DNA of 64,000 nt from contig OZ024741.1 of assembly GCA_964016885.1 (NCBI GenBank), positions 43,958,001-44,022,000 of the forward strand. The letters run 5' to 3'. The notes under the pieces are model-generated. The model made no database searches and was not told where the DNA came from. It was given only the letters and a program-made list of their open reading frames with translations. Position numbers and translations under genes: made by a program. Positions 2,166 to 62,387 of the stretch are shown piece after piece. Every line of letters starts with the position of its first letter. Within the stretch, counting starts at the first letter, position 1. The DNA comes from Eledone cirrhosa. Its lineage: Eukaryota.

Positions 2166-2717
2166 ACAGTTCGTCCACATCGATTTAAAATAATAATAAT
2201 AATAAATCGACAAAAACTAGCTGTGCCGCCAAATGGCTATGATGTTTATACATATTTAAATTTCAAAGTCAAACCTGTTCAGTAGATAAGTTTAAACCTC
2301 AAAATCGAAACATGTTTCGAGATGGATACGTGTATAAGTGTAGGAATATCTTAATATAACGGCTCTTCGTCAAGCTAAAATTCGCCTCATATATACGACT
2401 GTTATTTCTAGCAGTACGGTTATGAGACTAGCCTGAATTTGTGAACCCATGTGCGTCACACAGTCTTTTAAATTATTTAGAAGTGAAGCTTATCAATTGT
2501 CTCTGGATGTTTACTGAGGAGAGCAGTGGCAAGATATTCCTACACTTATACACGTATCCATCTCGAAACATGTTTGGATTTTGAGGTTTAAACTTATCTA
2601 CTGAACAGGTTTGACTTTGAAATTTAAATATGTATAAACATCATAGCCATTTGGCGGCACAGCTAGTTTTTGTCGATTTATTATTATTATTATTTTAAAT
2701 CGATGTGGACGAACTGT
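2166..2717. repeat. Inverted repeat, about 185 bp arms (2166-2352 / 2531-2717)
   Basis: Arms are reverse complements; ORFs 2085(+) and 2598(-) share TVRPHRFKIIIIINRQKLAVPPNG. Confidence 0.95.
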
Positions 2718-3842
2718 ATCAATAACATTGATACAAAGGCTGACACCTGGACTTACAGGGCACATACAACAAATACAGACAGCCCAGCAGACCGAATATC
2801 CAGTCAGCACAGTCCCAGCAACTACAACAGTCTTGCCAACAATAGGGCAGATGTATCCGGTACAACAAGCATAATAACAGCAAATATCCAGGGTCTTTAT
2901 CCGAAAACAAAACAGTGTAAATTCCCTTTCTTGGAAGAATTAGCAACAGAAAACAACTCCAAAATAATTGGAATTACTGAAAGTCATCTCAACGAAAACA
3001 TCCGCAACAGCGAAATCTCAATCAATGGATTCAACATCTTCAGATGTGATAGACAAGGCAGATCCCATGGGGACGTTATGATGTATATCCATGATACCTA
3101 TGCATGCATAGAACTTGTCAATGAATCAAATGCCTACTGCAACCTGCTGTGCATAAAAATCATCCAACTTAATACAGTTGTAAGAATAATGTACAGACCG
3201 CCAAACAGCCCAACATTATCCTTCACTGAGCCACTGACAAAGCTCCAACAAATTCTGGGAAACATGGCGAGTCCAATGCCAGACATTATCCTCCTTGGCG
3301 ACTTCAACTTCCCTAACATCATCTGGCCACATGGACACATACTAAAACTGGGGACAAAAGCTGAACAAATACAGGCAGCCAAACTGTTGGAAGTCACAGA
3401 GAAATTATACCTCAAACAAATGATGAGAGAAGCAGCTAGAAATAATAATACGATCGACTTGGTTTTCACCAACAACGAGGACACGCTATTTGACCTTCAC
3501 TCAACCCCAACAATCCTTTCAGACCACAATATTATTGAAATGCATTTACACATTGGTAATGAGCCCAATGCCACAACTCTTAAACAAAAGGACATGCCAA
3601 AGTTATGCAGGTATGATTATCACCAGGCAAATTGGGAAACTATTAACAACCAGTTACAAATCATTGACTGGGATCTCTACCTTACTGGGCCAGATAAACA
3701 CAAGAAATTCTTAAACAAGATCGAAGAAATATGTGCAAAAAATATTCCTCTTAAGAAAACCAAATCCACAAAAAAAACCTGTACCACGGGAGCGAAAGAT
3801 CCTGATGCGCAAAAGGACAAGACTAAGAAACAAAACATCTAA
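2718..3842 (+). pseudogene. APE endonuclease portion of LINE ORF2 (frameshift at A-run near 3770)
   Basis: ORF 2670-3842; the first residues are read from the unrelated upstream inverted repeat, LINE-like sequence starts near 2718. Confidence 0.85.
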
Positions 3843-5863
3843 GCTGACATCAAAACATGAACTACAGAAAGTCCTTGACCAAATATACAGATTAGAAGAC
3901 AATCTAAAACAACACTATGATGAAGAACGTAACAATGCAGAAAAGAGAGCTATAGAAAACATCAAGAAAAATCCAAAATGTTTCTACAGTTTTGCAAAGA
4001 AATACTCGAATACCAAGTCAACAATAGGACCTCTCCAGAGACAAAATGGGTATGTAGTGAATAACCCTATTGAAATGGCAGAAATGTTGGGTCAACAGTA
4101 TGAAAGTGTCTTCAGTGAGCCATCTAAAACCATGAAGATCCATGACCCAGGAGAATTCTTCAAGGATATCGACCATACTAAACCTATCCTATCCGACATT
4201 GATTTCAACCCAGAAGGCATAGAAAGAGCCATAGACAAGCTCTCCATGCACTCGGCTGCGGGGCCTGATGGTTTCAATGCCATGCTACTTAAAAACTGCA
4301 AGGTACAATTGTTGAAACCCCTCTACATGATATGGAAGGAATCTATGGAGAATGGCAAAATACCAAATACATATAAAGAAGCACACATAACTCCATTACA
4401 TAAAGGGGACAGCAAATCAAAACCAAAGAACTACCGACCAATCTCACTGATATCACACATTATCAAGGTCTTCGAAAGAATAGTTCGTGGAAAACTGGTT
4501 GAGTTCCTGGAATCCAACAATCTGATGAATTGCAATCAGCATGGATTCAGGTTAGGTAGATCATGTCTTTCCCAACTACTGGCACACCATGACCAAATCC
4601 TAGGAAATCTAGAGAATGGATACAACACAGATGTTATTTACCTCGACTTTGCCAAGGCATTTGACAAGGTAGATCATGGCATCCTGGTACACAAACTTCG
4701 AAAGCTAGGAGTAGGAGGAAAATTTGGTACATGGATACATGAATTCCTTATAAATAGAACTCAAACAGTCACTGTGAATGGAACCCATTCAACACCATCA
4801 CCTGTGACCAGCAGTGTTCCTCAGGGTACAGTACTCGGCCCGATCCTGTTTCTCATCCTCATCTCTGCCATAGATGAAGATACAACCAGCAACGTCTCAT
4901 CCTTTGCTGATGACACCAGGGTCATGAGACAAATCAAAGACGAGGTGGATACAGAGGCCTTACAAAAGGACCCAACCACCATATACAAATGGCAGGAAAC
5001 AAACAACATGTTGTTCAATGATAAGAAGTTTGAACTAATTCGCTACGGAACAGATCAAGATCTGAAAAATACAACAAACTACAGAAACCCATCAGGACAA
5101 CAAATAATGGAAAAACAGTGTGTGAAACATTTAGGCATCCACATGGGAACCAGCCTAAAATTCAGAGAACACCTTGACTCAGTCTGTCTTACTGCAAGAA
5201 AGTACAGCGCGTGGATCTTGCGCACCTTCAAATCAAGAGATACCTCAACAATGAAAACCCTCTGGAACAGTATGATACTTCCGAGGATTCACTACTGTTC
5301 TCAGTTGTGGTCACCAACAACAAAGGGCCAACTATCTAAGATGGAATCGCTCCAAAGAAATTTTACCTCATACTTCTCAGAAACGAGGGACCTGGACTAT
5401 TGGCAAAGACTCAGAACCTTGAAGATGTACTCAATAGAAAGAAGATTTGAGCGATACCGAATAATATACATTTGGAAAAATGATAGAGCAAAAGGTGCCA
5501 AACTTTGGTATCAAAACCTACCACTCACTGCGCCACGGAAGACGCTGCCAGCTACCACCAATCAACAAAAGGGCTGGCCAGGCAGCAAAAACCCTGCGAG
5601 AGTCAAGTCTGTTGGTTAGAGGGGCACAACTATTCAACTCCATTCCGGTACATGTCAGAAATCTATCAGGATGCAGTGTGGAATCATTCAAATTGCAGCT
5701 GGATAGATACTTAAGCACCATTAGAGATGAACCCCATCTCCCAGGATATACACAACGAGCACAAACTGACTCAAACTCGCTCCTACACATGTCAAAATTA
5801 AACAGAGAATCCAACCTGGCAACCACACCAGACTCTGAGGGTGGAGTCTTCGACTTGACCTGA
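3733..5863 (+). pseudogene. Reverse transcriptase and C-terminal portion of LINE ORF2 (second frameshift at A-run near 5478)
   Basis: ORF 3733-5619 carries the RT motifs; ORF 5480-5863 continues with GAQLFNSIP...FKLQLDRYLSTIRDEP, a typical LINE C-terminus. Confidence 0.88.
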
Positions 5864-5905: not shown

Positions 5906-7130
5906 TTAGTGGATTCTGTGGAGGTCAAGTTCCACATACGAGTATTCAATGAAGAGATGGTCGGAAGAGGAGAGATGTGGGGTGCGCGCGCAACAGGAAG
6001 TGATCAAGCAGTGGGAGTGCTGTGTGTCTGTTTGTGCTGGGAGGTGGTCAGAGGGCATAGCAGCAGTCGGTGGAATGGTAAAGGGGCGAGAATGGGTAGG
6101 TGTGAAAGTTGGAGTGAGGAGGGTGTGTGTGTGTGTATTAGTAGAGGTGTTAGTGGGATGAGTGAGTGTGGAGCGAGGGTGTGGGTGGAGCGAGGAGAGA
6201 AGGGTGTGTGTAGTTCTATGGAGGGATTGTGGTGTACTGGTGTGTGTGTAGTTTGATGAAGGGGTGTTAGTGGGTGTTAGTATACGGGTGGTGGGGAAGG
6301 GTTGAATGCAGGCGTGAGTGGGGGATAGTGGTGGTAGGGTGTGTAGAGTTGGTGGTGTACGAGGGTGTGTGGGTACGTGTGCGTGGGTTTGGGGGGGTGT
6401 TAGTGATGTTAGTTGCGTGTGGGGTGGTTGGTGTAAGTGGGTGCGTGTGTTCGTGTGCTTGGGGTCAGGGGGTGTTAGTGAGGTTAGTTGCGGGGTGGTG
6501 GGATGGAGGTGTGGGGGTGAGAGGTGTGGGGGTGAGGGTTAGTGGTGGTAGTAGGGTGTGTATATATTTGCCGGTGGGTGTGTGCGTGTGATAAGGAGGG
6601 GGGAGGAGGAGAAGAAGGGAGGGATGTTAGTATGTTAGTTGGGGAAGGGTGGTCGGATGAGGGGTGGAGTGGAGGTGTTAGTATCGTTAGTTGTGGGGTG
6701 GGCGGTGAAAAGGAGGGGTGTGTTAGTGGTGTTAGTGGGGGATAAGTGTGGAGGGAGGGGGGCGGTCGAAGGCTAAAGGAATAAGGGTGGGGAGTTCAGG
6801 CCGGGGGGAGTGTGGGTCTGTAAGATGAAGATAGTTCTTTGTTCGACTCTAAGGCGATTGGCGGGTGTTCCGTGGCATTGGAGTAGGCCACAGACTGTGA
6901 GATGGCGTGCGGAATGTCCAGGACCACTAAAGTGGCGTGCGATGGGGGAACTACCACCGAGACGAATATCCCGGAGGTGCTCAGTGAATCGGTCCCCCAG
7001 GCGACGTCCCGTCTGTCCGACATAAGTCGAACGTTTTCACGAACGTTTTCACGAACCAAAGTATCGTCTTCCTGTCTTCCTCCGGTTGCAACGTTTTTCG
7101 AAATATCCAGTTCTGCGTTAACAGATTGAC
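5906..7130 (-). mobile_element. Possible ORF1-like fragment of a second Tx1-type LINE (C/A-rich low-complexity minus strand)
   Basis: Strong GT skew mirrors the C/A-rich Thr/Pro region of ORF1 at 24660-25400; minus frame reads SVNAELD versus PVNRQLD in that ORF1. No catalytic motif. Confidence 0.35.
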
Positions 7131-7136
7131 TTTGTT

Positions 7137-7187
7137 AGTTTCAGAAGATCCCGTTAAAAGTGAAAGCAGCGCTTCTTTGCTTAAACT
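7137..7187 (+). ncRNA. Variant-core hammerhead-like motif (CAGAAGA), stem II decayed
   Basis: agttt-CAGAAGA-tcccgttaaaagt-GAAA-gca...tgc-TT-aaact. Confidence 0.5.
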
Positions 7188-7198
7188 TTAATCTGTTA

Positions 7199-8925
<1,727 letters not shown>

Positions 8926-15968: not shown

Positions 15969-15972
<4 letters not shown>

Positions 15973-16118
15973 TTATTAAAATAACAGATTAAAGTTTAAG
16001 CAAAGAATCGCTGCTTTCACCCTTAACAGGATCTTCTGAAACTCAGAGTTTCAGAAGATCCCGTTAAGGGTGAAAGCAGCGATTTGCTTAAACTTTAATC
16101 TGTTATTTTAATAAATAT
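15969..16118. repeat. Fold-back palindrome, 1-nt centre at 16045, made of two back-to-back variant HHRs
   Basis: gaaactc-A-gagtttc centre; HHR-like motifs at 15993-16043(-) and 16047-16094(+). Confidence 0.92.
16047..16094 (+). ncRNA. Variant-core type I hammerhead (CAGAAGA)
   Basis: agttt-CAGAAGA-t-ccc-gttaa-ggg-t-GAAA-gca-gcgatt-tgc-TT-aaact; all three stems pair. Confidence 0.65.
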
Positions 16119-16201
16119 TTGCTCTACGGTTCTTATATATTTGCTATAAATTTATCCTTATCGAGCCCTCTTTGGATTTTAGTCTTCAAATTTATTATAT
16201 A

Positions 16202-16238
<37 letters not shown>

Positions 16239-19322: not shown

Positions 19323-20093
19323 TTATTGTTCATTTAGCTTGGGTTTGAATTTATCAATAAAATTATTTTCTTTGATTTTTCTCTTGATTTCACTTGGGCT
19401 GTATAATTTGTAGAATGGGAATATTATAAATATTCCCTGACCACATGTTGCCTGGTGGCCGCTTAGGGGTATCTGACGGACATTTGGGTCTCTGATTTGT
19501 TGACGGTGTACCCGTGCACGTTTCGATAGTGCATTTCCAGTTTGACCGACATATAGTTCTTCACAATTCGGGCATTTAATGCAGTAAATTAGATTTCTGC
19601 TTTTGCAGTTCATATTTGCATTTGGGAATATTTTTCCAATTTTTGTTTTCATATATTGACCGGCGTGTATGGATTGACATGTGCCGCATCGATTATCATT
19701 GCATTTAGATACAGTGAATGATTGGTCTTTGTTGATAAGGTCAAACTTTGCTTTTGTTAGTAATTGCTTCAAATGTTTTGGCTGTCTTTTACTAAGAGTC
19801 AAAGATCGATCTGTGATTAAGCCTTTTAATTCATTACTTTGAGCAATGATCGGTAGGTTTGCTTTGGCAGTGTTGAAGATATTCTGGTGACATGGGTTGT
19901 GTGCCATTATAATTGGTATGACCAGTTCTTGGTTTCTTCTTCCTTGGGTTGTCCTAAGTTGTTGTATAAGTATTTTTATAGCCCGATGTATGCCATTTTC
20001 TATAAGTAGAGATGGTTTTTTTGTTTGAGCAAAAATTCTCTTAGTTCTGTTAGGCGTTTGTACCTGGTATTCGTATCTTCTACAATGGTACAA
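19323..20093 (-). pseudogene. Inverted duplicate of PLE thumb, Zn-linker and GIY-YIG region
   Basis: 256-aa ORF nearly identical to 22126-22835 and lacking the break at about 22380. Confidence 0.92.
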
Positions 20094-20599
20094 ATTCTTA
20101 TAGCCAGGCAGTATGGGTATCCTCCTTCAGTTCTTGGTGGTTGACTGTTGGAGTCGGTGTGAATTTCAGTCCTTTTGACAGAATTTGCATTTCTTCATTG
20201 TCAAGATCTTTTTCTTCCTGTTAGCATTATTTTTAACAATCTGGGAAAATGACCTAGGCTTGCTTTCAGGTTTAGATCGTTTTTTCGTCCAATTTCTTGT
20301 GGGCAATCTCTGTTGAGATATTGAGAGTGATCTGGTTATTCTACGATCTAAACCTGAAAGCAAACATAAGTCATTTTCCCAGATTGTTAAAAATAATGCT
20401 AACAATAATATACAGAATACCAAAAATAGGACAAAATACATAACGAAACCAAATATAATATCACGACCAAAAGTTCATCAAGCGAACACCAACAGGAATA
20501 TAAATCCTGAACAGAGAAAAATCCATTTTTTAACGTCAGGACAACAAAAACCGGAAAAAGAAAAACTCCAGGAGGGAACATACCCAAAACAGCTGTACA

Positions 20600-22835
20600 C
20601 GTAGATCCTAAAATAATTAATTTATCTAAAAGAGATCTTGACAATGATGAAATGCAAATTCTGTCAAAAGGACTGAAATTCACACCGACTCCAACAGTCA
20701 ACCACCAAGAACTGAAGGAGGATACCCAAGAATTCTGTCGAAAATTACGTCTTGTAGAATTCTTCGCTCATAAAAATAATGAGAGTGATGAATCACTATT
20801 AAAGAATAAATCAAATTTCACTCCGCCAAAAGGAAGAAATATCTATCTCGACCAATACATTGACATCCTGTCTAAATTTCCTCTTAGACATAATACTAAT
20901 GTTAGGCCAAACATTAACAAATCAGAAATGTCTGCACTTAAACGTATACAAAATGATAAAACAATAATAATTAAACAAGCAGATAAAGGGGGTGCAGTTG
21001 TTATAATGGATACTGAATACTACAAGGATTTGGTTGAGGAACAACTGAAAGACAACATTCTATCATGAAATACCGTCAAATATAGACCACAACATCATGA
21101 AGAAGATCAACAACCTGGCTTCAAAATACCACAACTCATTTACTGATAAGGAAAGAGACTGCATCACCAATTTTGAGCCGAAACCCAGCAACCTGTATGG
21201 CCTACCGAAAGTTCATAAGTCAAAAGAAATACAACTGGCAGTAAGAGAACAAAACAGTGAGTACATTAAATTATTACACCCAAAAGACTTAAAACTTAGA
21301 CCTATTATAGCTGGTCCAACATGCCCCACCCACCGTCTAAGCAATTTTGTTGACATTATTTTGAAACCACTATGAATTCACATACCCAGTTTCATCCGGG
21401 ATGATATCGACTTCCTGTCCCATCTTCCCAAAACCACGGAAACGAATTCACTTCTACTCAGTTTTGATGTGGTAAGCCTTTACACCAACATTACACATGA
21501 TTTAGCAATAAAGGCGGTTAAATACTGGGTGGAAAAACATAGAGAAGTGATTCCCATCAGATTCTCAGCGCCATTTATATTAGACGCAGTTAAACTTATT
21601 CTGGAAAACAACACTTTCATCTTCAATGGAAATAATTACATCCAAATTAGAGGCACAGCGATGGGAACGAAGTTTGCTCCCGTTTACGCGAACTCTGTAA
21701 TGGGATACTTAGAACAACAACTCTACCAAAAAATAGAGGAAAAATATAGTACTGACTTTAGAAAGTACATTGAAAAATCTTGGAAGAGATACCTTGACGA
21801 CTGTTTCATCATCTGGACAGAATCTCTAGATACTCTGGATGAGTTCATTATCCTCCTGAATAACCTACACCCAACTCTCCAATTCACAAAAGAGATGAGT
21901 AGGACCAAATTACCATTCCTAGATATAATGATAATCAAAAACGACACCACCATTACCACGGATATATATTATAAACACACAGACACCCATTAATATCTGA
22001 ATTTTAAGTCGTGCCATCCACCTCATACAAAACGCAACATCCCATACTGCCTAGCCAGAAGAATTTGTACCATTGTAGAAGATACGAATACCAGGTACAA
22101 ACGCCTAACGGAACTAAGAGAATTTTTGCTCAAACAAAAATACCCATCTCTACTTATAGAAAATGGCATACAGCGGGCTATAAAAATACCTATACAACAA
22201 CTTAGAACAACCAAAGGAAGAAGAAACCAAGAACTGGTCATACCATTTATAATGACACACAACCCATGTCACCAGAATATCTTCAACACTGCCAAAGCAA
22301 ACCTACCGATCATTGCTCAAAGTAATGAATTAAAAGGCTTAATCACAGATCGATCTTTGACTCTTAGTAAAAGACGCTAAAACATTTGAAGCAATTACTA
22401 ACAAAAGCAAAGTCTGACCTTAACAACAAAGACCAATCATTCACTGTATCTAAATGCAATGATAGTCGATGCGGCACATGTCAATCCATACACGCCGGTC
22501 AATATATGAAAACAAAATCTGGAAAAATATTCCCAAATGCAAATATGAACTGCAAAAGCAGAAATCTAATTTACTGCATTAAATGCCCGAATTGTGAAGA
22601 ACTATATGTCGGTCAAACTGGAAATGCACTATCGGAACGTGAACGGGTACACCGTCAACAAATCAGAGACCCAAATGTCCGTCAGATACCCCTAAGCGGC
22701 CACCTGGCAACATATGGTCAGGGAATATTTATAATATTCCCATTCTACAAATTATACAGCCCAAGTGAAATCAAGAGAAAAATCAAAGAAAATAATTTTA
22801 TTGATAAATTCAAACCCAAGCTAAATGAACAATAA
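20600..22835 (+). pseudogene. PLE RT plus GIY-YIG polyprotein broken by stops and frameshifts
   Basis: Collinear ORFs 20652-21068, 21097-21375, 21469-21993, 22126-22380, 22386-22835. Confidence 0.92.
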
Positions 22836-23641: not shown

Positions 23642-25429
23642 ATGGCCGAAGCTTCTTCACCAAAATTCGAAGGAGGAAAGGGGAAGATGAACTTACAGCT
23701 TCCCCCTGCCACTGTCACAGTAGCAGAGGTCAAGAAGATAGGTCAGCCAGAGGAAGAATTCTCTCCACCTGTTAACCGACAACTTGACGTTGCCATGGCA
23801 ACAACCCAAAGAACCAGCAGCAACAGCAACAACAACAACAATGCGACGGACGAAAACAACACCAATAACAATAACAATAACAACAACAAGACCAATAACG
23901 GTGACAACAACAACAATGATAACAACAACACCACCAACGACAACAACATCACAAACAAACAAAATTTCTCCTTCGCCGAGACGACAAGGAAAACCCTCGA
24001 CTATCTGCCAGTAGATATAACAAAAGCGAAGGAGCTACTGGCGGATGCGAAAAAATATATAGTGTACGTGGAAAATGGTTCATTCACAATCCATTCCCCC
24101 CCGGAACTAAAAAGCCAGAGACTCCTAAACACGGTCATGTTTAGGACAATCTCGAACAAAAGTAAAAAACCAGCTCAACCATCACAGAGCGAGATAGAGC
24201 TGGTCTTAAAAGACGTCATGAAGGACATCACCTTCATTCAGAAGGATAGACTCTACGGGAGTCTATCCATTCTCATGAAGGACAGGGACACAGCAGTGAA
24301 ACTGTCCATCAAACCAATCACATCCACCGCATACACCTTCTACCCTACGTACATGGGTAGAAGAACACAAAAAATAAAAATCCACACCATCCTGCCGATT
24401 ATGGACATATGGTGGGTTTTGACAGGTTTTCTGGACCTGGAGGATGACATGCTGGTGTCCATGGGAAAGGCATCGGGTGACGCGTTCAGTGGAACGAGCC
24501 TCGAACTTGTAGTTCAAATGAGGCCCGAAAGGATCGCCCAGATCCCTGAACGCGTCATACTGGATGATCTAACCTTCATCAACATTACCGTTGAGGGTAG
24601 ACGGCCCTCGTGTTACCTCTGCGGAACCAGAGGTCACCTGAGGGCTGTCTGTCCCCAACTTAATAAGAAAACCCCAATCCTGCCTACACCACCAACAACT
24701 GCACAACCAACACAATCACCACAACTACCACTACAAAAACAACCACCACAGCCCAAACCAAAACAAAACAATGTCCAACCCATCCCCTCCACTCAAAAAA
24801 CAAAAACAATTTCCAAAACACCCGTACCGCAAACACAACCCGAAAATATACCCCTCCCCTCCAACGCGGAAGATGACCCTAGTTCGTCGTCAGACGAGGA
24901 GGAGCACTTCCACACAATCAAAAGAAAAAAAAGAAAACACACCTCAGACACACAAATGAAAAAAACCCCTCCCCAAAACATAACACTGACACCAACACAA
25001 AAGAGCTCACAACAGCAAACAAAAAACACCACACAAAAACAAAAACATGCATACACATACATAAATACAAGAAACAAAAAACTGTTAAACATTGTGTACA
25101 ACAACAATCTAATAAAAACACAAGGGCCTAACTTCACCCAGGCAGGGGATTTCCCCCACCTCAAAATGATTAAGGCCCCACAGGACACCTATAAAACTTT
25201 AAAAAACAATTTTAAAGAGGACGTGGGTCCCCCCTGCGTCGGGCCCATTAACCGCGTCCTCCTAAAAAACTATCCCACCCCCTCCCCAAACACCCTCACA
25301 ACTCCAAGCTCCCCAACCACACAACACACTGATGCCCCCACACTTCCACAAACCACCACCCCACCCAACAACCCATCCCCCACCCTAATGGAAATTGTGC
25401 AGCCCGATACCCGGGACGCAGAGAGGTAA
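23642..25429 (+). CDS. LINE ORF1 gag-like nucleic-acid-binding protein, 595 aa
   Basis: CCHC knuckle CYLCGTRGHLRAVC, poly-Asn tract, Pro/Gln/Thr-rich tail, basic KRKKRKH. Confidence 0.9.
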   Translation: MAEASSPKFEGGKGKMNLQLPPATVTVAEVKKIGQPEEEFSPPVNRQLDVAMATTQRTSSNSNNNNNATDENNTNNNNNNNNKTNNGDNNNNDNNNTTNDNNITNKQNFSFAETTRKTLDYLPVDITKAKELLADAKKYIVYVENGSFTIHSPPELKSQRLLNTVMFRTISNKSKKPAQPSQSEIELVLKDVMKDITFIQKDRLYGSLSILMKDRDTAVKLSIKPITSTAYTFYPTYMGRRTQKIKIHTILPIMDIWWVLTGFLDLEDDMLVSMGKASGDAFSGTSLELVVQMRPERIAQIPERVILDDLTFINITVEGRRPSCYLCGTRGHLRAVCPQLNKKTPILPTPPTTAQPTQSPQLPLQKQPPQPKPKQNNVQPIPSTQKTKTISKTPVPQTQPENIPLPSNAEDDPSSSSDEEEHFHTIKRKKRKHTSDTQMKKTPPQNITLTPTQKSSQQQTKNTTQKQKHAYTYINTRNKKLLNIVYNNNLIKTQGPNFTQAGDFPHLKMIKAPQDTYKTLKNNFKEDVGPPCVGPINRVLLKNYPTPSPNTLTTPSSPTTQHTDAPTLPQTTTPPNNPSPTLMEIVQPDTRDAER

Positions 25430-25453
25430 GTGCCTTTTCTCTTCACCACCAAC

Positions 25454-28400
25454 ATGGCTATGCTAAGAGTAGGCTGTTTAAATGCGCGTGGCCTGGGCTC
25501 AACTTGGAAGCAAGCAATGCTTCTAAATGACCTCAGGTCACAACGTATAGATGTGATGGTTATTTGCGAGGCCCGGATCAGCAACGTGCGACAGCTGGCC
25601 CCCACCTTTGATGACTTTGAGATGCACGCATCTCTCTGTCAGCCCGGAGGTGGGGGTGGAGTTGTCGTTCTGCTGCAAAAACATCTGGGTCTCGCAACAC
25701 AGATGGTACATTTGGACCCGGAGGGTCGACTAGTGGTTCTGGACCTTGGCAGTGGTAAAGGCGGAGCGTTTAGGTTGGTAGCCGCCTACGGCCCTTTCGG
25801 GTCAATGCGGCCGGACTTCTTCCATCGTCTGGAGACTTTTCTAGGGACGTCCCGCTCCTTGCTATTAGTGGGGGACTGGAATGGTATCCTAGATGCACGC
25901 TGGGACTACGTAGGGGCCTGCCCCGATAGAGAGGGGTGTAATAGCCTCAAAGGGTTAATCGGTCGATTTGACCTGGCCGATAGATATCGACTAGATTTTC
26001 CGACTGCGCCAACCTGGACTTGGGCAAATCGTAGCGGATCATCTAGGTCGTACCTAGATAGGTTCTTAGTTAGAATTAAGGATAAGGACTTTTTAAGTTG
26101 TCCAAAAATGCGCATGGTTGGCTATTCAGACCACAAATTAGTGACCTGCATGGTCAACCTTGACAGAACTCATAGACAGGGCCCCGGTTACTGGAAGCTC
26201 AACTTGTCCTTGCCGGCAAGTAGAGCCTACAGGAATCGGATTAGTACGTTAGTTAAGGAACGGTTGACTGGAGCGATCGTCAACAGCAGGTGGTGGGTAT
26301 CTCTAAAGAGAGAGATTAGAGTAGTCTCGATAGAATTTAGTAAGGTTCTAGCTGCGGATAGGAATAGGAAGGAAAGGGAGCTAATAGATAGAGTAGAAGA
26401 GGCAATTAGAAGCGGCGACGTGGCCAGAGTGCTAGCGTCGAGAACGGCTTTGAGCCAGTTTTTCGACGCGAAGCACGAAGGCTGCGTTGTCCGAAGTAAA
26501 ATACGTGCTCTAGGGAACGAGGGGACCAAAGCTGTTAGCTGGGCCCGCGTGACAGAGGCCAACAGTGGAACTAAATCCACCATCCGGTCTTTGCGAGACC
26601 TGGATGGACGGGCGATTCTTGAGCCTAAGCAGATGTGTGAGGCCTTTCAAAGGCACTTTGCCCGACTGTTCGGGAGGGGCGGGGAGCCGGTTGGGAACGT
26701 GGACTTCGGTCCATACCTCGACGGCCTGCCGCGCCTCTCGGACAGGGAGGCGAAGTCCTGCGAGGAGCCGATTTCGGCCGCTGAGATAGAGGACGTGCTG
26801 AGCCAATGCGGCAAACGCAAATCCCCGGGTCTCGATGGTCTTCCTTACGAATTATATCTAGCTATGCCGGACTTATTCCCCAATCTCCTCGAGGCGGTCT
26901 ACTGCAACTGGCAACAGAACGGGAGAATTCCCTGTACTGTGACCAAGGGCGTAGTCACGCTAGTGAGGAAGGACGAGAACAAGGGGGACGAAATAAGTAA
27001 CTTCAGGCCCATAACACTGCTAAATACAGAGTTACAGATTTTGGCCAAGGTGCTAGCAAAGAGGTTGGCGCTTGTCGTGGGCAACCTGGTGGGAGATGCG
27101 CAGACATGCGCTATCCCGTCCAGGTCCATCCATGACAACCTCCACCTCATGCGATACATCATAGAGAGGGTTGGGAACGAACCCGGCTTTGGTGGGGCTC
27201 TGATCAACTTGGATCAATCTAAGGCGTTCGATAGGGTCGACCATGGTTACCTGGATGCGGTGCTAGCGGCGGCAGGCTTCGGACCCGTTTTCAGGGGCTG
27301 GATCACTGCTATGCACAGCAGCCGCATCTGCTCTAGGGTCAAGGTGAACGGCTACCTCTCGGAGCCGTTCCAAATCGCGCGGTCCATCCGACAAGGGTGC
27401 CCTCTCTCCTCCCTTCTGTATGTGTTGACTCTCGAGCCACTACTGCGGAAGTTGGAGTTGTTGCAGGGCATCCCCTTGGAACCGGGATTGCGGAAAGCGG
27501 TGTCGGCCTACGCCGATGACGTGACAGTAATGGTGTCAACGGCCTCCGAAATCGAGGCGGTCGGCACCTTACTGGAGGAGTACGAAAGGTTCACAGGGGC
27601 TAAGCTGAACCGGGACAAGTCGATCGGTTTGCAACTCGGCACGTGGAGGGGCAGACCGATGCCCTCCGATAGCGTCGTCGGACGCTGGACGGAGGGCCCG
27701 GTGAAGTTGCTCGGGGTCTGGTTCGGACCGGACCTCCAGGTGGAGAAAAACTGGGCGGAGGTTACGAACAGGGTGTTTGCACTGACCCAGAAGTGGGCCA
27801 GTTGCAAACTATCCCTGAAAGGTCGGGCGGAAGTGGCGAACACCTACATAGCGTCCGTCATCTACTACCGCCTGACCGTAGTGCCCTGCCCAAGGGAAAC
27901 CCTCACCAAGATGGAGCGCGCGCTCTTCCAATTCCTTTGGAAGAGGCGGGCTCCTATGGTGAGGAGATCCATCTGCTGTCAACACCCTTCGAAAGGAGGG
28001 CTGGGGATGCCGTGGCTAATGATGCGTAAACACGCATTAAGGCTACGGCACCTCTACGTATTCCTCACCGGACAACCGGTGTGGGCCTCGTTTGTGAGAC
28101 GAACCTTTCCCAGACTCGTCTCACTCACCGAGCTGCAATCCTGGGTCAAGCAAAGACCGAGAAAACTGGGCGCCTGGCACACTGAGTGTGCCCAGGCGCT
28201 CACCGCCCTCTGGCAGGCGGATCCGGTTATCAGTGGAGACTCCACCGCAACATTCTATAGAGGGCTGGTACGCAGCAGGTGCGACGACGCCCTCGGAGAA
28301 GCCCTAGACATGGAGGAGGACGAACTGGCCAGCCTGTTCGGTAGGACATTCAGCCCAGGACCTATGGACAACTTCCAGAAGTCCCTGGCCTGGCAGTGCT

Positions 28401-28891
28401 ACCGAGGGGCTTTACCCGTTCGAGAAAGGCTCTACAGACACGGGCGCCCGGGTAGGGACCCCGCCAAAAAGATCTGTCCCAGATGCGTGTGCGACGAGGA
28501 AACCGTTGCACACGCATTGGTACACTGCTCGGGCGTAGCCGATCTGTGGGGCTATGTCGAACAACTGCTGTCAAGGGTGGGACCGATCCGGTTGACCACC
28601 GAGTCTATTGTAATGATCAAGCCGCCTCCCCCCTTCAAAGATGAAGCAGAGGCGGTGTTTCTGTGCGTAATAGCCATGGCGAAAGAGGTTGTATGGTGGA
28701 CGCGTCTGAAAGGACTGAGGTCAGGCACCTTTCTCTCTGGCCAACAACTGGTCCGTTTCTTCCGATATCATTTCGGAAGAAGGATCAGGATGGAGAGAGA
28801 GGTGCTGCACCCCAGCCGTTTCTATGAAAGATGGGTGAAAGTGGCGAGAATGGCCCGTGTGAATGGGCCTTCACTCTACATCAGACTATAG
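25454..28891 (+). CDS. LINE ORF2: APE endonuclease, reverse transcriptase and C-terminal Zn finger
   Basis: CLNARGL, VGDWN, YLDRF, SDH; KSPGLDGLP, NFRPITLLN, LDQSKAFDRVDH, RQGCPLS, YADD; CPRC..ETVAHALVHC. First in-frame ATG at 25454. Confidence 0.95.
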   Translation: MAMLRVGCLNARGLGSTWKQAMLLNDLRSQRIDVMVICEARISNVRQLAPTFDDFEMHASLCQPGGGGGVVVLLQKHLGLATQMVHLDPEGRLVVLDLGSGKGGAFRLVAAYGPFGSMRPDFFHRLETFLGTSRSLLLVGDWNGILDARWDYVGACPDREGCNSLKGLIGRFDLADRYRLDFPTAPTWTWANRSGSSRSYLDRFLVRIKDKDFLSCPKMRMVGYSDHKLVTCMVNLDRTHRQGPGYWKLNLSLPASRAYRNRISTLVKERLTGAIVNSRWWVSLKREIRVVSIEFSKVLAADRNRKERELIDRVEEAIRSGDVARVLASRTALSQFFDAKHEGCVVRSKIRALGNEGTKAVSWARVTEANSGTKSTIRSLRDLDGRAILEPKQMCEAFQRHFARLFGRGGEPVGNVDFGPYLDGLPRLSDREAKSCEEPISAAEIEDVLSQCGKRKSPGLDGLPYELYLAMPDLFPNLLEAVYCNWQQNGRIPCTVTKGVVTLVRKDENKGDEISNFRPITLLNTELQILAKVLAKRLALVVGNLVGDAQTCAIPSRSIHDNLHLMRYIIERVGNEPGFGGALINLDQSKAFDRVDHGYLDAVLAAAGFGPVFRGWITAMHSSRICSRVKVNGYLSEPFQIARSIRQGCPLSSLLYVLTLEPLLRKLELLQGIPLEPGLRKAVSAYADDVTVMVSTASEIEAVGTLLEEYERFTGAKLNRDKSIGLQLGTWRGRPMPSDSVVGRWTEGPVKLLGVWFGPDLQVEKNWAEVTNRVFALTQKWASCKLSLKGRAEVANTYIASVIYYRLTVVPCPRETLTKMERALFQFLWKRRAPMVRRSICCQHPSKGGLGMPWLMMRKHALRLRHLYVFLTGQPVWASFVRRTFPRLVSLTELQSWVKQRPRKLGAWHTECAQALTALWQADPVISGDSTATFYRGLVRSRCDDALGEALDMEEDELASLFGRTFSPGPMDNFQKSLAWQCYRGALPVRERLYRHGRPGRDPAKKICPRCVCDEETVAHALVHCSGVADLWGYVEQLLSRVGPIRLTTESIVMIKPPPPFKDEAEAVFLCVIAMAKEVVWWTRLKGLRSGTFLSGQQLVRFFRYHFGRRIRMEREVLHPSRFYERWVKVARMARVNGPSLYIRL

Positions 28892-29819: not shown

Positions 29820-29968
29820 AATTAATAGACGTTGTTTAATTGTGTTCTCTGTTATATATATATATAATAATATTAATAAATTTGAAGACTAAAATCCAAA
29901 GAGGGCTCAATAAGGATATTGTATATCGAATATCTAACAACCGTAGAGCGAATATTTATTAAAATAAC

Positions 29969-30019
29969 AGTTTCAGAAGATCCCGTTAAGGGTGAAAGCA
30001 GCGATGCTTTGCTTAAAAT
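29969..30019 (+). ncRNA. Variant-core hammerhead (CAGAAGA), fourth copy
   Basis: agttt-CAGAAGA-tcccgttaagggt-GAAA-gca...tgc-TT-aaaat. Confidence 0.6.
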
Positions 30020-30267
30020 TTAATCTGTTATTTTAATATATATATATATATATATATAAACGGAAAAAATGAAACGAAATTTAATTTCCCACACTTAGTA
30101 CGGCTGTTACTTAAATATAAGTATGTACACGTACAATCATACATGCACACAGACGCACAGTAACTCACCGATTAACCCACTCGATATGCAAATCTGGCTG
30201 CTCAGCCGTTAATATTTAAAAGGAAAGTATATACTTTCAGACGTTCAATCATCTGGCAGGAAGGTAT

Positions 30268-57300: not shown

Positions 57301-60300
57301 TCTATATATATAAAAGCGAGGATGTGTGTGTGTCTGTGTACAAATTTGGATACCTAACGCTTTTACAATTCCCAACCGAATTTGACCAAATTTTCTGTGC
57401 ACGTTGCACCTGTGGCTAAGAGGTTCACATCACAAACATTTTTCAAATCGACCCACCTTGAGCAATAAAAAATCGATGGCAAAATTATTTTTTCTATAGT
57501 GCATGATGTAAGGGATATAACAAACTTTATTGACAATCCTTATAAAGAGAGTGAGAGAAGGGAGATATGGAGACCTTCGTTTTCACTTTCAAAACAACAA
57601 TCATAGTCGGACGAAATTTCAGAAATATAAACATCAGATTCATTTGTAGATAAATCCCTAATATTATCGTTTGTTTCTTGTTTATTCTGAATGTCGTCGT
57701 GTGTAAAACCTCGAAAGTCGGTATCGCTACTTTCATAAGCCATGTTGATACAAAAAAACATTTGTTGCACTTTCAAAGTTAAAAAAAAAACACTTGTTGT
57801 TTTAATTTATTTCACTTTATTAAGTGTTAATTTTCGCGGTAAGGGCCTAATCTCGCAGCAGTCTCGAATTGACGAGATTTTTAGAACAATCCTTATGGAA
57901 CTTTCCATTCAAACCATTGGGACCTACAACCCTTACGTTTTTAAAATAATTTCTTCCACATTTGAGGCAGGCATTATCTATGCTTCCAGCTGTATTCGTA
58001 CATATCAAACTTTATTGACAACGAAGGAACATACTGAACAGGATGTAGTTATTCAAAGGATTTTTTAAGTTTTGCCAGTATATTTTTAATTTTTCTGTAA
58101 CGCTTCAATTCATACATTTTGACTTTACAATGTTTCACCAAATATGCCCCGTAAAAGAAAGTATGCACATATTGGCTCTCGGACTTTGACCTCTCGCTCG
58201 AAGAAAACAATGCGTGTAAATGAGGCTCCACCGAGAACGGAAATTAGACAATAAAAAAATGCGGTGAGTACAGTTATTGCAACATCTTTGTCCGCCGCTG
58301 AGCGTCGGTTAGTGCGGCGAACCAATAATGCTAAAGCAACTGCTGAAGCACGAGCTACAGAGACAGTACAGATATATGAAACATGCCGTGCGCGTAATGC
58401 TTCAGCTAATGCTGCAGCAAGAGCAATTGAAACTGAGAAAGAACGTCAAAGTCGCCAATTGAGAAATGCTTCAGCTACTGCTACGGCACGAGCTGTAGAG
58501 ACTGTAACAAGTCGAGCTATTCGGCAGGAGGGAACGCTTAACGTAGAGCTTTATCGCGGCGTATTTCAAAGGCATCACGCTCACGATGGTACCTTAAGTA
58601 CCATCGTGAGTGTGACCCTAATGTAAACTATCAAATCCATCCTGGTATTCAAATATATGCCATGTCAAATACTTGCCAACATCGTAAAGCTAAAAAGTGG
58701 GCGGGAGAATCGGCTGGAATGTGCTGCTCTAATGGTAAGGTTAATTTGCCCACCCTTAGGGAACCACCGCAACCTCTTCAGATGCTTCTAACAGGTAATC
58801 ATTCACAATCACCTGATTTTCTTAAGCATATCCGACAGTACACCATTGCGTTTCAAATGACCTCTTTTGGTGCAAAACGTCTTAAGGAAGATGGATATAT
58901 CCCGACTTTCAAAGTACAGGGCCAGGTGTATCATCTCATTGGATCTCTGCAACCGCTGCCTACTGAAGAGCCACAATGTTTACAAGTTTACTTTATCGTT
59001 AACTGTCATCAGCAAACAGATAGACGGCAATCGTACACTTCAGACACTAAACTGGAACTCTTGATTGACCTCCAAGACATGCTTCACTCTAACAATAGCT
59101 ACATTCAAAGCATCAAGTATGCTACGCCAAATTACGATATCGTCATTTACGCTGATGAGAGACCATCTGCCGAGCATGCGGGCTGGTATAATGCACCTAC
59201 TTGTAATGAGGTAGCCATCGTTATTAGTGGAGAGAAGCACAAGAGAGACATTATTATCAAGCGACCAGACAATAGCCTTAACAGAATAAGTGAAACCCAT
59301 CGATCTTACGACGCACTCCAGTATCCGCTATTATTTGTTTATGGTGAGGATGGATACCATTTCGGAATTCATCAAATTAATTACACCAACCAAGATGAGC
59401 ATACTACGAACATTGTCACGGGCTTGGATTTTTATGCTTTCCAATTCATGATCCGCGACAGCTGCTTCAACCAGCTGCACCGATCACAAGACCTCTTCAA
59501 TCAATTTTGAAGTTGACATGTTCGCGAAAATGGAGTCCGAGAGATTATGCTTCATTCGACTTAATCAGAAACAACTTTGCTGTGACAGTTACATTCAGCT
59601 TCGTGATAGTATTGGACTGTTGTGTATCCTGCCTTCATCTTTCACAGGATGTCCTCGGTTCTTTTTCGAAAAAATTCATGATGCTTTAATTATTGTGCGC
59701 CTTTTCGGTAAACCAGATTTCACTTCAAACCCAAAATGGGAAGAGATTCAGAAAGAACTCTTTCCAGGTTAAAAAGCCACAGCCAGGCATGATCTTATTG
59801 CCAGAGTTTTCCATCTTAAGTTAATTAAGCTCATGGAAATTATCAAAACAGTTTTCTTTAAACTATGTCAAGAAGATCCATTTGCTAAAACCTTGCTATA
59901 TCCACAAGTCCCATCTTACTATACCTGGGACAAAAATACATGGAAGCGAAGAATAACGACAGTGCGTCGAAGGTTATCCGAGCATCAAGTTCAACGAGTG
60001 CTTGGGCAGAGTTTATACTGTGCCCCCAAACCAACACGATTGTTTCCATCTTCGCATGCCACTACATGAGGTCAGAGGACCTACCTACTTTGATGATCGC
60101 CGAACGTTAGACGGACAAGTTCTTCCAACATACACAAAGCATGTTTGAGGCGTGGATAGCTGGAAGATGGTTCGCAGTGGGATGTAACGATGGCGGAAGT
60201 TGCTCTTTCACATTCACCTGCCAGCCTAAAAAAATTATTTGGGGTACTTTTGCACTCGTGCAACTTATCTGATCCTCTGTCCTTGTGGATGAAATATAGG

Positions 60301-62387
60301 AATGAACTAACAGACGACTACAGACACCAAGCACAATTGCTGCTTCCTGAAATAGACGTCGGCTTTAGTAATGAATTATACAACAGAGCTCTCATTGATA
60401 TTGAGGACAAGTTAGCTCTGATTGCAGGAAAGGTTTTACGTGACTACGATTTACCAGAAACTCATCGCACGGACTCAAACAAACTTCCCACAGATATCAT
60501 ACAGGAGACTTCTTATGACATCCATGATCTCGGCCTCTACGTCACAGATAATGAGCCAAAGCTTCTAGCTGATCAGCGACTGGCTTATACCCCCATTACT
60601 GAATAAGTATTTCAAAGAAGAAGTGGCATATTTTCCTCGATGCTCCAGGTGGGACAGGAAAAACTTCCGTTACTAAACTTCTTCTTCCAAAGGTTAGGCA
60701 GAATAAGGACATAGCAATAGCAGTTGCGTCCTCTGGAATCGCAGCAACTTTGCTCCCTGGTGGAAGGACGGCACATTCAGTTTTTAAGTTGCCCCTTGAT
60801 ATGGCAAAATTGGAAACTACTACTTGTCATATCACCAAAGACTCCGAAAGGGCTCTTCTGCTGCGAAAGTGTCACCTTATTGTTTGGGATGAGTGCACAA
60901 TGGCGCACAAAGGTATTCTTGAGGCACTAGACAGGTCTTTGCAAGATATACGGGATTGCAGTGATGTTATGGGGGGTGTCACCCTTCTGCTATCAGGAGA
61001 CTTCAGACAGACTCTTCCTATAATACCGAAAGGAACAAGAGCAGATGAGGTAAATGAATGTCTTAGGTCTTCACCATTGTGGCGACAAGTGACATCATTA
61101 AGAATAACTACCAACATGCGTGCAAGGTTACATGGGGACCCTCTGTCATCAACATTTTCTGGAGACATTCTGAAATAGGGGATGGTAACCTATCTCCGGA
61201 TACAGATGGACACAGCAATTGATCACATCTGCAATGTAGTTGAAACTGTCAATGATCTCAATGCGAGTGTATTCCCGAACTTACGTGATAACTATATGAC
61301 TCTTGAATTGCTATGAGAAACAGCCATTCTTGCACCCAGACATATCACGGTTAGCTGTATTAACGATCAGCTTCTTCAGCTTCTTCCTGGATGTCCACGG
61401 ATATATAAATCTATTGATACTGTGTGATCCACAGGATGCTGTCAATTATCCAGTTGAATTTCTAAATTCTTTAAATCCTCCCGGTTTACCTCCTAATACA
61501 TTGGTTCTGAAACGCCAGTTATTTTGCTGAGAAATATCACTCCTACAAAACTATGCAATGGTACATGCCTTGTGGTTAAAAAACTGTCTCGAGTTAGTAT
61601 TGACGCTACCATTCTATCCGGATGTGGAAAAGGCGAGGATGTGATAATAACAAAAATTAGCCTAACTACATCAGGCGTGGATACTCCTTTCTCCTTTCGC
61701 CGAACCCAATTTCCCCTTCGTGTTGCCGTTGTGATGTCCATAAACAAGTCACAAGGTCAAACTCTGTCTGTCGCTGGAATTCACTTGGATGAACCTTACT
61801 TTTTCGCACGGAAAATTCTACGTTGCCTGATCACGAGTAGAGATAATCTCTTTGCGATTGTTCCGAAAACAAAACCAAAGAATATCGTCTATCCTGAAGT
61901 GCTTTAGTGTTAACAAAAACACTTATTACAGCTCTGCCTTGACTTCACCTTACTCATTACAAAACATACAATGAATATGTCATGCAGGATATTTTGGATT
62001 ATAAGTTCAAAATTTAACCATACACAGCAAAGGATGCTCTAAAAGAATAGATTTTCTCTTATTCTACTCTCATTGTTTTTTTGTTTGTATACAACTCTGT
62101 TTTCATTACAACTTTTTGTACTTTAGCAAAACTGCCTGTTTTTTTACAGATTTGCAACATGTACTGTCTTTAATCATTTGTATAACTACATCCTGTTCAG
62201 TGTTTTCCTTCATTATCAGCATAGTTTTATGTGTACAAAGATTGCACTAAATATTCGTTTGCATTAGTTATTGAAGACTTCTGCTTATTTTGACAGGTTG
62301 GGGACAAATCATTTTCTTCTTTTACTTCCTAGCTGTTTATTCTTAGCATAATTTCAAACCCCGGGCAACGCCGGGTAAATCTACTAG
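57301..62387 (+). mobile_element. Helitron, decayed autonomous copy
   Basis: 5' A|TCtatatatataaaagc; 3' hairpin cccgg-gcaacg-ccggg then CTAG|T; encloses RepHel remnants. Confidence 0.92.
58143..61907 (+). pseudogene. Helitron Rep/PIF1-like helicase, fragmented and internally deleted
   Basis: CCSNGKV, FQMTSFG, FKVQGQVYH, SYDALQYPL, LPSSFTG, FGKPD; helicase DAPGGTGKT, LLPGGRTAHS, IVWDECTM, GDFRQTLP, QFPLRVA..SINKSQGQT. Confidence 0.92.

What the first reader, a model, noticed from the sequence alone, without database searches (positions are those of the whole stretch)
15993..16094. Hammerhead family with conserved non-canonical core CAGAAGA (U4 replaced by A)
Seen: four copies (7137+, 15993-, 16047+, 29969+) all carry CAGAAGA in place of CUGANGA. 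Stems I (agttt/aaact), II (ccc/ggg) and III (agca/tgct) are best preserved at 16047; other copies have some stem changes. All four cassettes start at the same base, the first nucleotide of stem I. Inference: a natural core variant that still propagates. A standard CUGANGA search would miss it. Two of the four are mirror arms, so there are three independent loci.
Basis: partly seen in the sequence, partly recalled or inferred. Interest (0 to 1): 0.75.

Follow-up and report, generated by a model that had tools for sequence, protein, structure and literature searches.

The report
Core-mutated hammerhead starting a Penelope RNA
These repeats are end-pieces of a very abundant jumping gene whose hammerhead-shaped RNA has an A where working self-cutting RNAs have a U; the motif likely sits at the capped start of the element's RNA and likely cuts slowly or not at all (untested), which makes it a natural test of what these ribozymes are for.

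Summary
Observation mostly confirmed. The four copies are end fragments (pLTR) of a Hydra-clade Penelope-like retrotransposon with at least 26,800 ends in the genome. A at core position 4 is the family state: 17,754 of 17,938 exact matches (T 72). Older subfamilies, about 80% identical, also have A. Between old and young, majority changes fall only in loops (4 of 14, against 0 of 37 stem/core sites), so the fold is likely still selected. About 1,800 copies begin exactly at the first base of stem I, about 60% of them after an extra G: likely the capped transcription start. These copies were therefore likely made from uncut RNA, and cutting would remove the cap. Best reading: a slowed or dead hammerhead in an element that moves without cleavage. 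Activity is untested, and selection for A4 itself is not shown. Corrections: the 7137 copy continues 97 nt upstream; the 16047 copy has a loop deletion. The scan reported this family twice before on other DNA of this genome (e1-10304421, e1-10330111).

The parts
7040..7211 (+). pLTR fragment, element positions -97 to +75 (+1 = first A of AGTTT); contains the outer 5' strand of stem I (7121-7129)
   Evidence: 96% to L047
7137..7187 (+). hammerhead-shaped motif, core 7142-7148, A4 at 7143; stem II broken in this copy
15969..16043 (-). mirror arm, +1 to +75, ending in (TA)n; motif 16043-15993, A4 at 16037, predicted cut between 15998 and 15997
16044..16046 (.). 3-nt junction CAG between the arms; each arm, read on its own strand, has a G before +1 where the element has T (likely cap-derived)
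   Evidence: sequence; genome counts
16047..16207 (+). forward arm, +1 to +161 (long tail), followed by (TA)n; motif 16047-16094, A4 at 16053, 3-nt deletion in loop III
29866..29973 (-). inverted tail arm, +54 to +162, joined to the 29969 copy
29969..30043 (+). arm +1 to +75; motif 29969-30019, A4 at 29975, one stem I mismatch; ends in (TA)n

Best explanation
The motif is the end-repeat hammerhead of a Hydra-clade Penelope-like retrotransposon, fixed for A at core position 4, and it likely cuts slowly at most, so that the element likely moves through uncut, capped RNA. Shown: the element anatomy (pLTR, 708-aa ORF, pLTR, tail, (TA)n targets); A4 in young and old subfamilies; the pile-up of 5' ends at +1 with an extra G. 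Inferred: (1) RNA polymerase II starts at +1, so the 5' copy of the motif has only a 5-bp stem I, while the 3' read-through copy can add a 9-bp outer helix. (2) The element's protein starts reverse transcription about 25 or 115 nt 3' of the cut site and runs off the cap, giving short arms like those in this window. (3) Cutting would decap the ORF RNA or detach the priming site, so loss of speed costs little. (4) The fold is still kept, for residual, possibly protein-assisted cleavage or as an RNA handle.
For: Two direct copies 3,259 nt apart flank the ORF in L047. 35 of 63 scored ORF matches have no stop; 53 of 53 motifs in loci L061-L089 have A4. Old subfamilies: A 45, G 2, T 3 of 50, all three T at mirror junctions. 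Majority changes old against young: 4 of 14 loop sites, 0 of 37 stem/core sites, Fisher p 0.004. 5' ends: G before +1 in 1,126 places, 96 of 100 listed being junctions; A or C in 1,007, 71 of 100 junctions; control site +33 about 18 of 100 of 542: about 17-fold pile-up (row classes by eye). Of 100 unselected copies, 6 mapped to +1 (7 with one x-drop overrun) and 0 to the cut site +47. Old subfamilies read TCAGTT at +1, an initiator-like sequence (consensus recalled). In another PLE, dead hammerheads did not affect insertion in vitro and unprocessed RNA was the main substrate (PMC11167929). CUGA mutants other than the C3-G8 swap had low activity (PMC9901934).
Against: No cleavage or RNA data: activity and the start site rest on DNA footprints. 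Conservation of the nine core bases alone is not significant (about 17% change per free site gives p about 0.2), and no reversion to U would be expected by chance either, so neither catalytic selection nor selection for A4 is shown. No compensatory pair change was seen in majority states; subfamily changes are phylogenetically linked, so the p values are optimistic. A canonical-core family in the same genome also shows no ends exactly at its cut site (0 of 100 rows), so the lack at +47 says nothing about activity. About a quarter of the extra G can be templated by the mirror arm. A natural U4C core stays functional in a viroid (PMC3088659).
Confidence: 0.6

Rival explanations
1. A4 is a working core variant: tertiary contacts or the element's protein restore useful cleavage, mainly in the 3' copy with the long stem I, and cleavage is part of the life cycle.
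For: Stems and core unchanged across subfamilies about 20% apart while position 7, the free core position, varies (A 36, T 10, G 4 of 50). The outer helix (-16 to -8 with +52 to +60) has no subfamily-diagnostic change in young copies while -17, -7 and -3 do. The Anolis PLE hammerhead cuts only with its protein. U4C is tolerated in vivo.
Against: Low activity of CUGA mutants; inner stem I pairing probability 0.01-0.08 and the hammerhead shape 3-4 kcal/mol above the minimum; copies read through the cut site in both pLTRs.
Confidence: 0.17
2. The motif is a dead relic; +1 to +60 is conserved only as the internal promoter, a DNA-level constraint, and the fold is irrelevant.
For: The region directly follows the inferred start; D. 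virilis Penelope has an internal promoter with downstream elements (PMC2377424); no covariation. A recurrent chimeric form lacking stem I and C3 appears in 6 of 100 rows.
Against: Changes fall in loops II and III (+19, +20, +34, +35, and a loop II insertion) and spare both strands of each stem, an RNA-fold pattern.
Confidence: 0.15
3. A4 is kept because it makes the AG of a 3' splice site (pyrimidine run, then TTTCAG) inside the core.
For: The sequence looks like an acceptor, and the element does splice: 7 loci lack a GT-AG intron of the 3' UTR.
Against: No copy joins a known donor exon to +9: 0 of 100 listed of 1,517 and 0 of 100 of 157. RNAs starting at +1 have no upstream intron.
Confidence: 0.04
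4. The hammerhead likeness is chance.
For: No Rfam hammerhead match at E <= 1; fold z-scores near 0.
Against: Same place in the element and same layout as published Hydra-clade hammerheads, including U10.1-U11.1 and U17. Rfam also missed canonical motifs at window 29548, 30274 and 31544.
Confidence: 0.02

Closest known systems
Hydra-clade Penelope-like elements and their 3' hammerheads (Craig et al. 2021, PMC8557442; section 11, passages, supplement parts 1-2 and a supplement search read)
   Same: Single ORF of about 700 aa with RW(K/R), DKT, CxCX5C and C-terminal GIY-YIG; (TA)n targets; type I hammerhead near the 3' end; U10.1-U11.1 and U17 are common in their File S2.
   Different: Every Hydra row in File S2 has a CTGA core; this family has CAGA. 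Loop III is 9 nt and not palindromic (theirs 1-3 nt). The unit is 3.26 kb, with an intron-bearing 3' UTR. It is not Hydra-1_Obim, whose motif differs; 'cagaagatcc' has 0 hits in the supplement.
PAc Poseidon element of Anolis (Frangieh et al. 2024, PMC11167929; parts 1-2 of 4 read)
   Same: Two fixed 3' ends (tail) downstream of the hammerhead; uncut RNA as template; no ends at the cut site.
   Different: Canonical core with protein-assisted cleavage shown; other clade; there the ORF starts inside the motif, here the ATG is about 200 nt after +1.
Natural hammerhead core variants (Perreault et al. 2011, PMC3088659, passages, Figure 5 not seen; Cervera and de la Pena 2014, PMC4209133, parts 1-2 of 4)
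   Same: Natural departures from CUGANGA exist, including U3-A8 in about 1,300 Schistosoma motifs, A6C, and U4C in a viroid.
   Different: U4A is not named in the passages read; here an uncompensated change is fixed in tens of thousands of copies and several subfamilies.

Membership tests
Hydra-clade PLE | single ORF with RT and C-terminal GIY-YIG between pLTRs | tested here: met
   L045 ORF 708 aa, L047 pLTR-ORF-pLTR; Pfam scan gave 0 families, so domains rest on motifs and on likeness by eye to published Hydra proteins
Hydra-clade PLE | RWK, DKT, CxCX5C linker, CxxC and CxH around E and N | tested here: met
   RLRWR 35 (R for K), DKT 115, CNCRNRADC 566, CDLC 661, CKH 689
Hydra-clade PLE | insertion into (TA)n, tails, inverted 5' arms | tested here: met
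Hydra-clade PLE | placement in the clade by RT phylogeny | not tested
   no tree built; 1,604 unnamed relatives, best full-length about 46% identical
Hydra-clade PLE | canonical hammerhead | tested here: not met
   A at position 4; no CTGANGA in the sense-strand 3' UTR or pLTR of L047
Type I hammerhead ribozyme | three stems around the core, open end at stem I | tested here: met
   5, 3 and 4 bp plus a 9-bp outer helix can be drawn; weak in prediction
Type I hammerhead ribozyme | C3, G5, A6, G8, A9, G12, A13, A14, A15.1-U16.1, H17 | tested here: met
Type I hammerhead ribozyme | U4 | tested here: not met
   A in 17,754 of 17,938
Type I hammerhead ribozyme | covariation of stems | tested here: inconclusive
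   stems invariant in majority states, no two-sided change
Type I hammerhead ribozyme | self-cleavage | not testable with these tools
   needs an assay; the DNA footprint test was uninformative
Non-LTR retrozyme | non-coding tandem monomers of a few hundred nt | tested here: not met
   the motif belongs to a protein-coding 3.26-kb unit

The most novel reading that the evidence does not exclude
A4 is the first natural purine-4 hammerhead core that works, as a position-dependent switch: off at the capped 5' end, where transcription starts inside stem I, and on, with the element's protein, in the 3' copy that has the full stem I. The element would have tuned its ribozyme down to protect its cap.
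Probability: 0.15. Interest if true: 0.75.

Novelty: new variant of a known kind. Interest (0 to 1): 0.52.

Why it matters
The job of hammerheads in Penelope-like elements is open. A family that reached tens of thousands of copies with a changed core, while keeping the fold, separates fold from catalysis in nature. The cap-like footprint places the motif at the first base of the element's RNA, which gives a concrete reason for slow cleavage. It also warns that CUGANGA searches miss such families and pick up mirror-junction look-alikes.

Tried and rejected
Rfam scan: no hammerhead among 150 of 151 rows shown; uninformative, since canonical motifs were missed too. Pfam: 0 families. A T4 sister subfamily: suggested by 1,359 CTGA hits, rejected because 9 of 9 family loci among the 10 fetched were mirror junctions where the inverted arm supplies CT (the tenth was unrelated). 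A T4 revertant lineage: true revertants are scattered over all upstream types. Splice acceptor in the core: no support. Ends at the cut site as a sign of activity: about 24 junctions plus 11 stem I fold-backs per 100 of 743, about twice the +33 control and inflated by AAA microhomology; the canonical control shows none. A permuted core from elsewhere in the element: none found. RNA: no RNA holder listed. Contigs of 4 runs showed no other base at position 4; the two runs labelled as other organisms had 6 and 12 records laid and were not used for taxonomic depth. Literature: 'hammerhead' with 'U4A' gave 0 papers; searches gave none on U4A in listings; PMC11014351 had 0 hits; PMC7151607 passages and supplement had nothing on it. 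Ambros and Flores 1998 and Lunse et al. 2017 are not held and Ruffner 1990 was not looked up; Lunse et al. treats PLE hammerhead variants and may bear on novelty. PMC4191386, PMC3846280, PMC6765202 and bioRxiv 2026.07.22.740005: passages only, little used.

Full report
Observation. The four copies are present and all read CAGAAGA. I number from the first A of AGTTT as +1: core +6 to +12, position 4 at +7, predicted cut between +46 and +47. Three copies start at +1; the 7137 copy starts at -97. The window lies in an unnamed 3.0-Gb animal genome.

What it belongs to. [quoted passage not shown] In L047 two direct copies of the motif, 3,259 nt apart, flank the ORF. These match the features listed for the Hydra clade of Penelope-like elements (PMC8557442 section 11); no tree was built. 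The family is young and large: 35 of 63 scored ORF matches have no stop, 29 copies are 97.2-98.1% identical to L045 in the ORF, and a 25-nt end anchor matches 26,833 places. The window copies are short end arms inserted in (TA)n.

Is it a hammerhead? File S2 of that paper lists Hydra hammerheads with the same layout; U10.1-U11.1 and U17 are common there, and all have CTGA. So position 4 is the one core oddity. The fold is weak: z-scores near zero, stem II 0.67-0.87, stem III 0.33-0.43, inner stem I 0.01-0.08. In read-through RNA a 9-bp outer helix extends stem I past a 7-nt bulge.

How fixed is A4? A 17,754, T 72, C or G 112 of 17,938; 113 of 113 covering copies chosen by tail or ORF; 53 of 53 beside near-intact ORFs. 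A looser search gave 1,359 CTGA hits. I first read some as a canonical sister family, but 9 of 9 family loci fetched were mirror junctions. Older subfamilies, 80% identical on average (27 tail-anchored loci, after dropping 3 duplicates of 30), also carry A: 45 A, 2 G, 3 T of 50, the T all at mirror junctions. The tail-anchored listing, free of any core constraint, agrees (about 48 A and 2 G by eye among 100 of 127 rows, T only at junction-type rows). Position 7 varies (A 36, T 10, G 4).

Is the fold selected? Old-against-young majority changes hit 4 of 14 loop sites and 0 of 37 stem or core sites (p 0.004). Among young copies, second alleles at 6% or more occur at 10 of 64 upstream and 0 of 47 motif sites, CpG sites left out (p 0.005). 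The changes are linked by descent, so these p values are optimistic, and there is no two-sided covariation. With about 7 of 40 upstream sites changed, nine unchanged core bases alone have a chance of about 0.2, so catalytic selection is not shown; nor is selection for A4.

The shared start. G precedes +1 in 1,126 places, 96 of 100 listed being junctions to foreign or mirror sequence. A or C precede it in 1,007, with 44 A and 27 C junctions per 100, 8 of the C being the partner arm's G. That is about 1,080 G, 440 A and 270 C; junctions with T cannot be separated from the element's own T. At +33 the same test gives about 100 junctions, 3 of 18 with G; at the cut site 2 of 24 have G. These row classes are by eye. 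A script on 100 unselected copies found 58 extending 40 nt or more upstream, 6-7 at +1, 6 at +4 (mirror fold-backs) and 0 at +47. An extra G at 5' ends is reported as reverse transcription of the cap for L1 (PMC4038843 passages citing Gilbert 2005). Old subfamilies read TCAGTT here, like an initiator (recalled consensus). I infer a capped start at +1, with a minor one near -3. In the window both arms at 16043 and 16047 carry the G.

Mechanism. Likely, RNA made from +1 carries the motif at its cap. Reverse transcription likely starts at the two fixed 3' ends (about +70 to +75 and +161 to +165), as shown for the Anolis element (PMC11167929), and runs off the cap. Copies that span the cut site and reach the cap G need uncut RNA. 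Cleavage would strip the cap or the priming site, so a slower core is cheap; in that paper catalytic mutants inserted normally. Mutagenesis predicts low activity for A4 (PMC9901934 passages), though natural U4C survives in a viroid (PMC3088659 passages). The absence of ends at the cut site is uninformative, because a canonical family of 27,667 matches shows none either in 100 rows.

Rivals. A working, protein-assisted variant (0.17), a promoter-only relic (0.15), a splice acceptor (0.04; negative) and chance (0.02).

Novelty. I found no paper naming a natural U4A core (limited library; Lunse 2017 not held). Two earlier notes of this scan describe the same family, seen after my reading was formed; their listed lines do not mention the start-site footprint or the old subfamilies. 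Verdict: new variant of a known kind, interest 0.52.

Noticed in passing
L047 4834-5583; L012, L013, L014, L028, L055, L090, L104: The element's 3' UTR holds a GT-AG intron of about 750 nt with two donors; 7 loci carry the spliced form, unusual for elements known for keeping introns.
   Followed up: partly
genome-wide; L183-L192: Many mirror junctions (most of 1,359 hits, judged from 9 of 9 fetched) recreate a canonical CTGAAGA without stem I and would fool a CUGANGA search.
   Followed up: partly
G000:C1:1933596 and 5 more rows: A recurrent chimeric family joins foreign upstream sequence to +7 of the motif, losing stem I and C3 (6 of 100 rows).
   Followed up: no
window 30274 (+): Canonical hammerhead of a tandem non-coding family with 27,667 anchor matches; stem and position 7 differences between subfamilies.
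   Followed up: partly
window 29548 (+) and 31544 (-): Two more canonical hammerhead motifs of other repeat families.
   Followed up: no
window 7387-7764 (+): GIY-YIG end of a different Hydra-type element, 34% identical to this family's, after the (TA)n tail of the 7137 copy.
   Followed up: no
window 19323-22835 (-): Broken Penelope-type RT and GIY-YIG frames of another family, with a repeated endonuclease part (read by eye).
   Followed up: no
window 23642-28891 (+): Two long open frames (595 and 1,153 aa) that look like an L1/Tx1-type LINE; 2667-5863 holds another LINE-like and 58542-61907 a Helitron-like remnant (read by eye).
   Followed up: no
window 7040: The 7137 copy starts at -97, the first base after the 3' UTR splice acceptor.
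   Followed up: no
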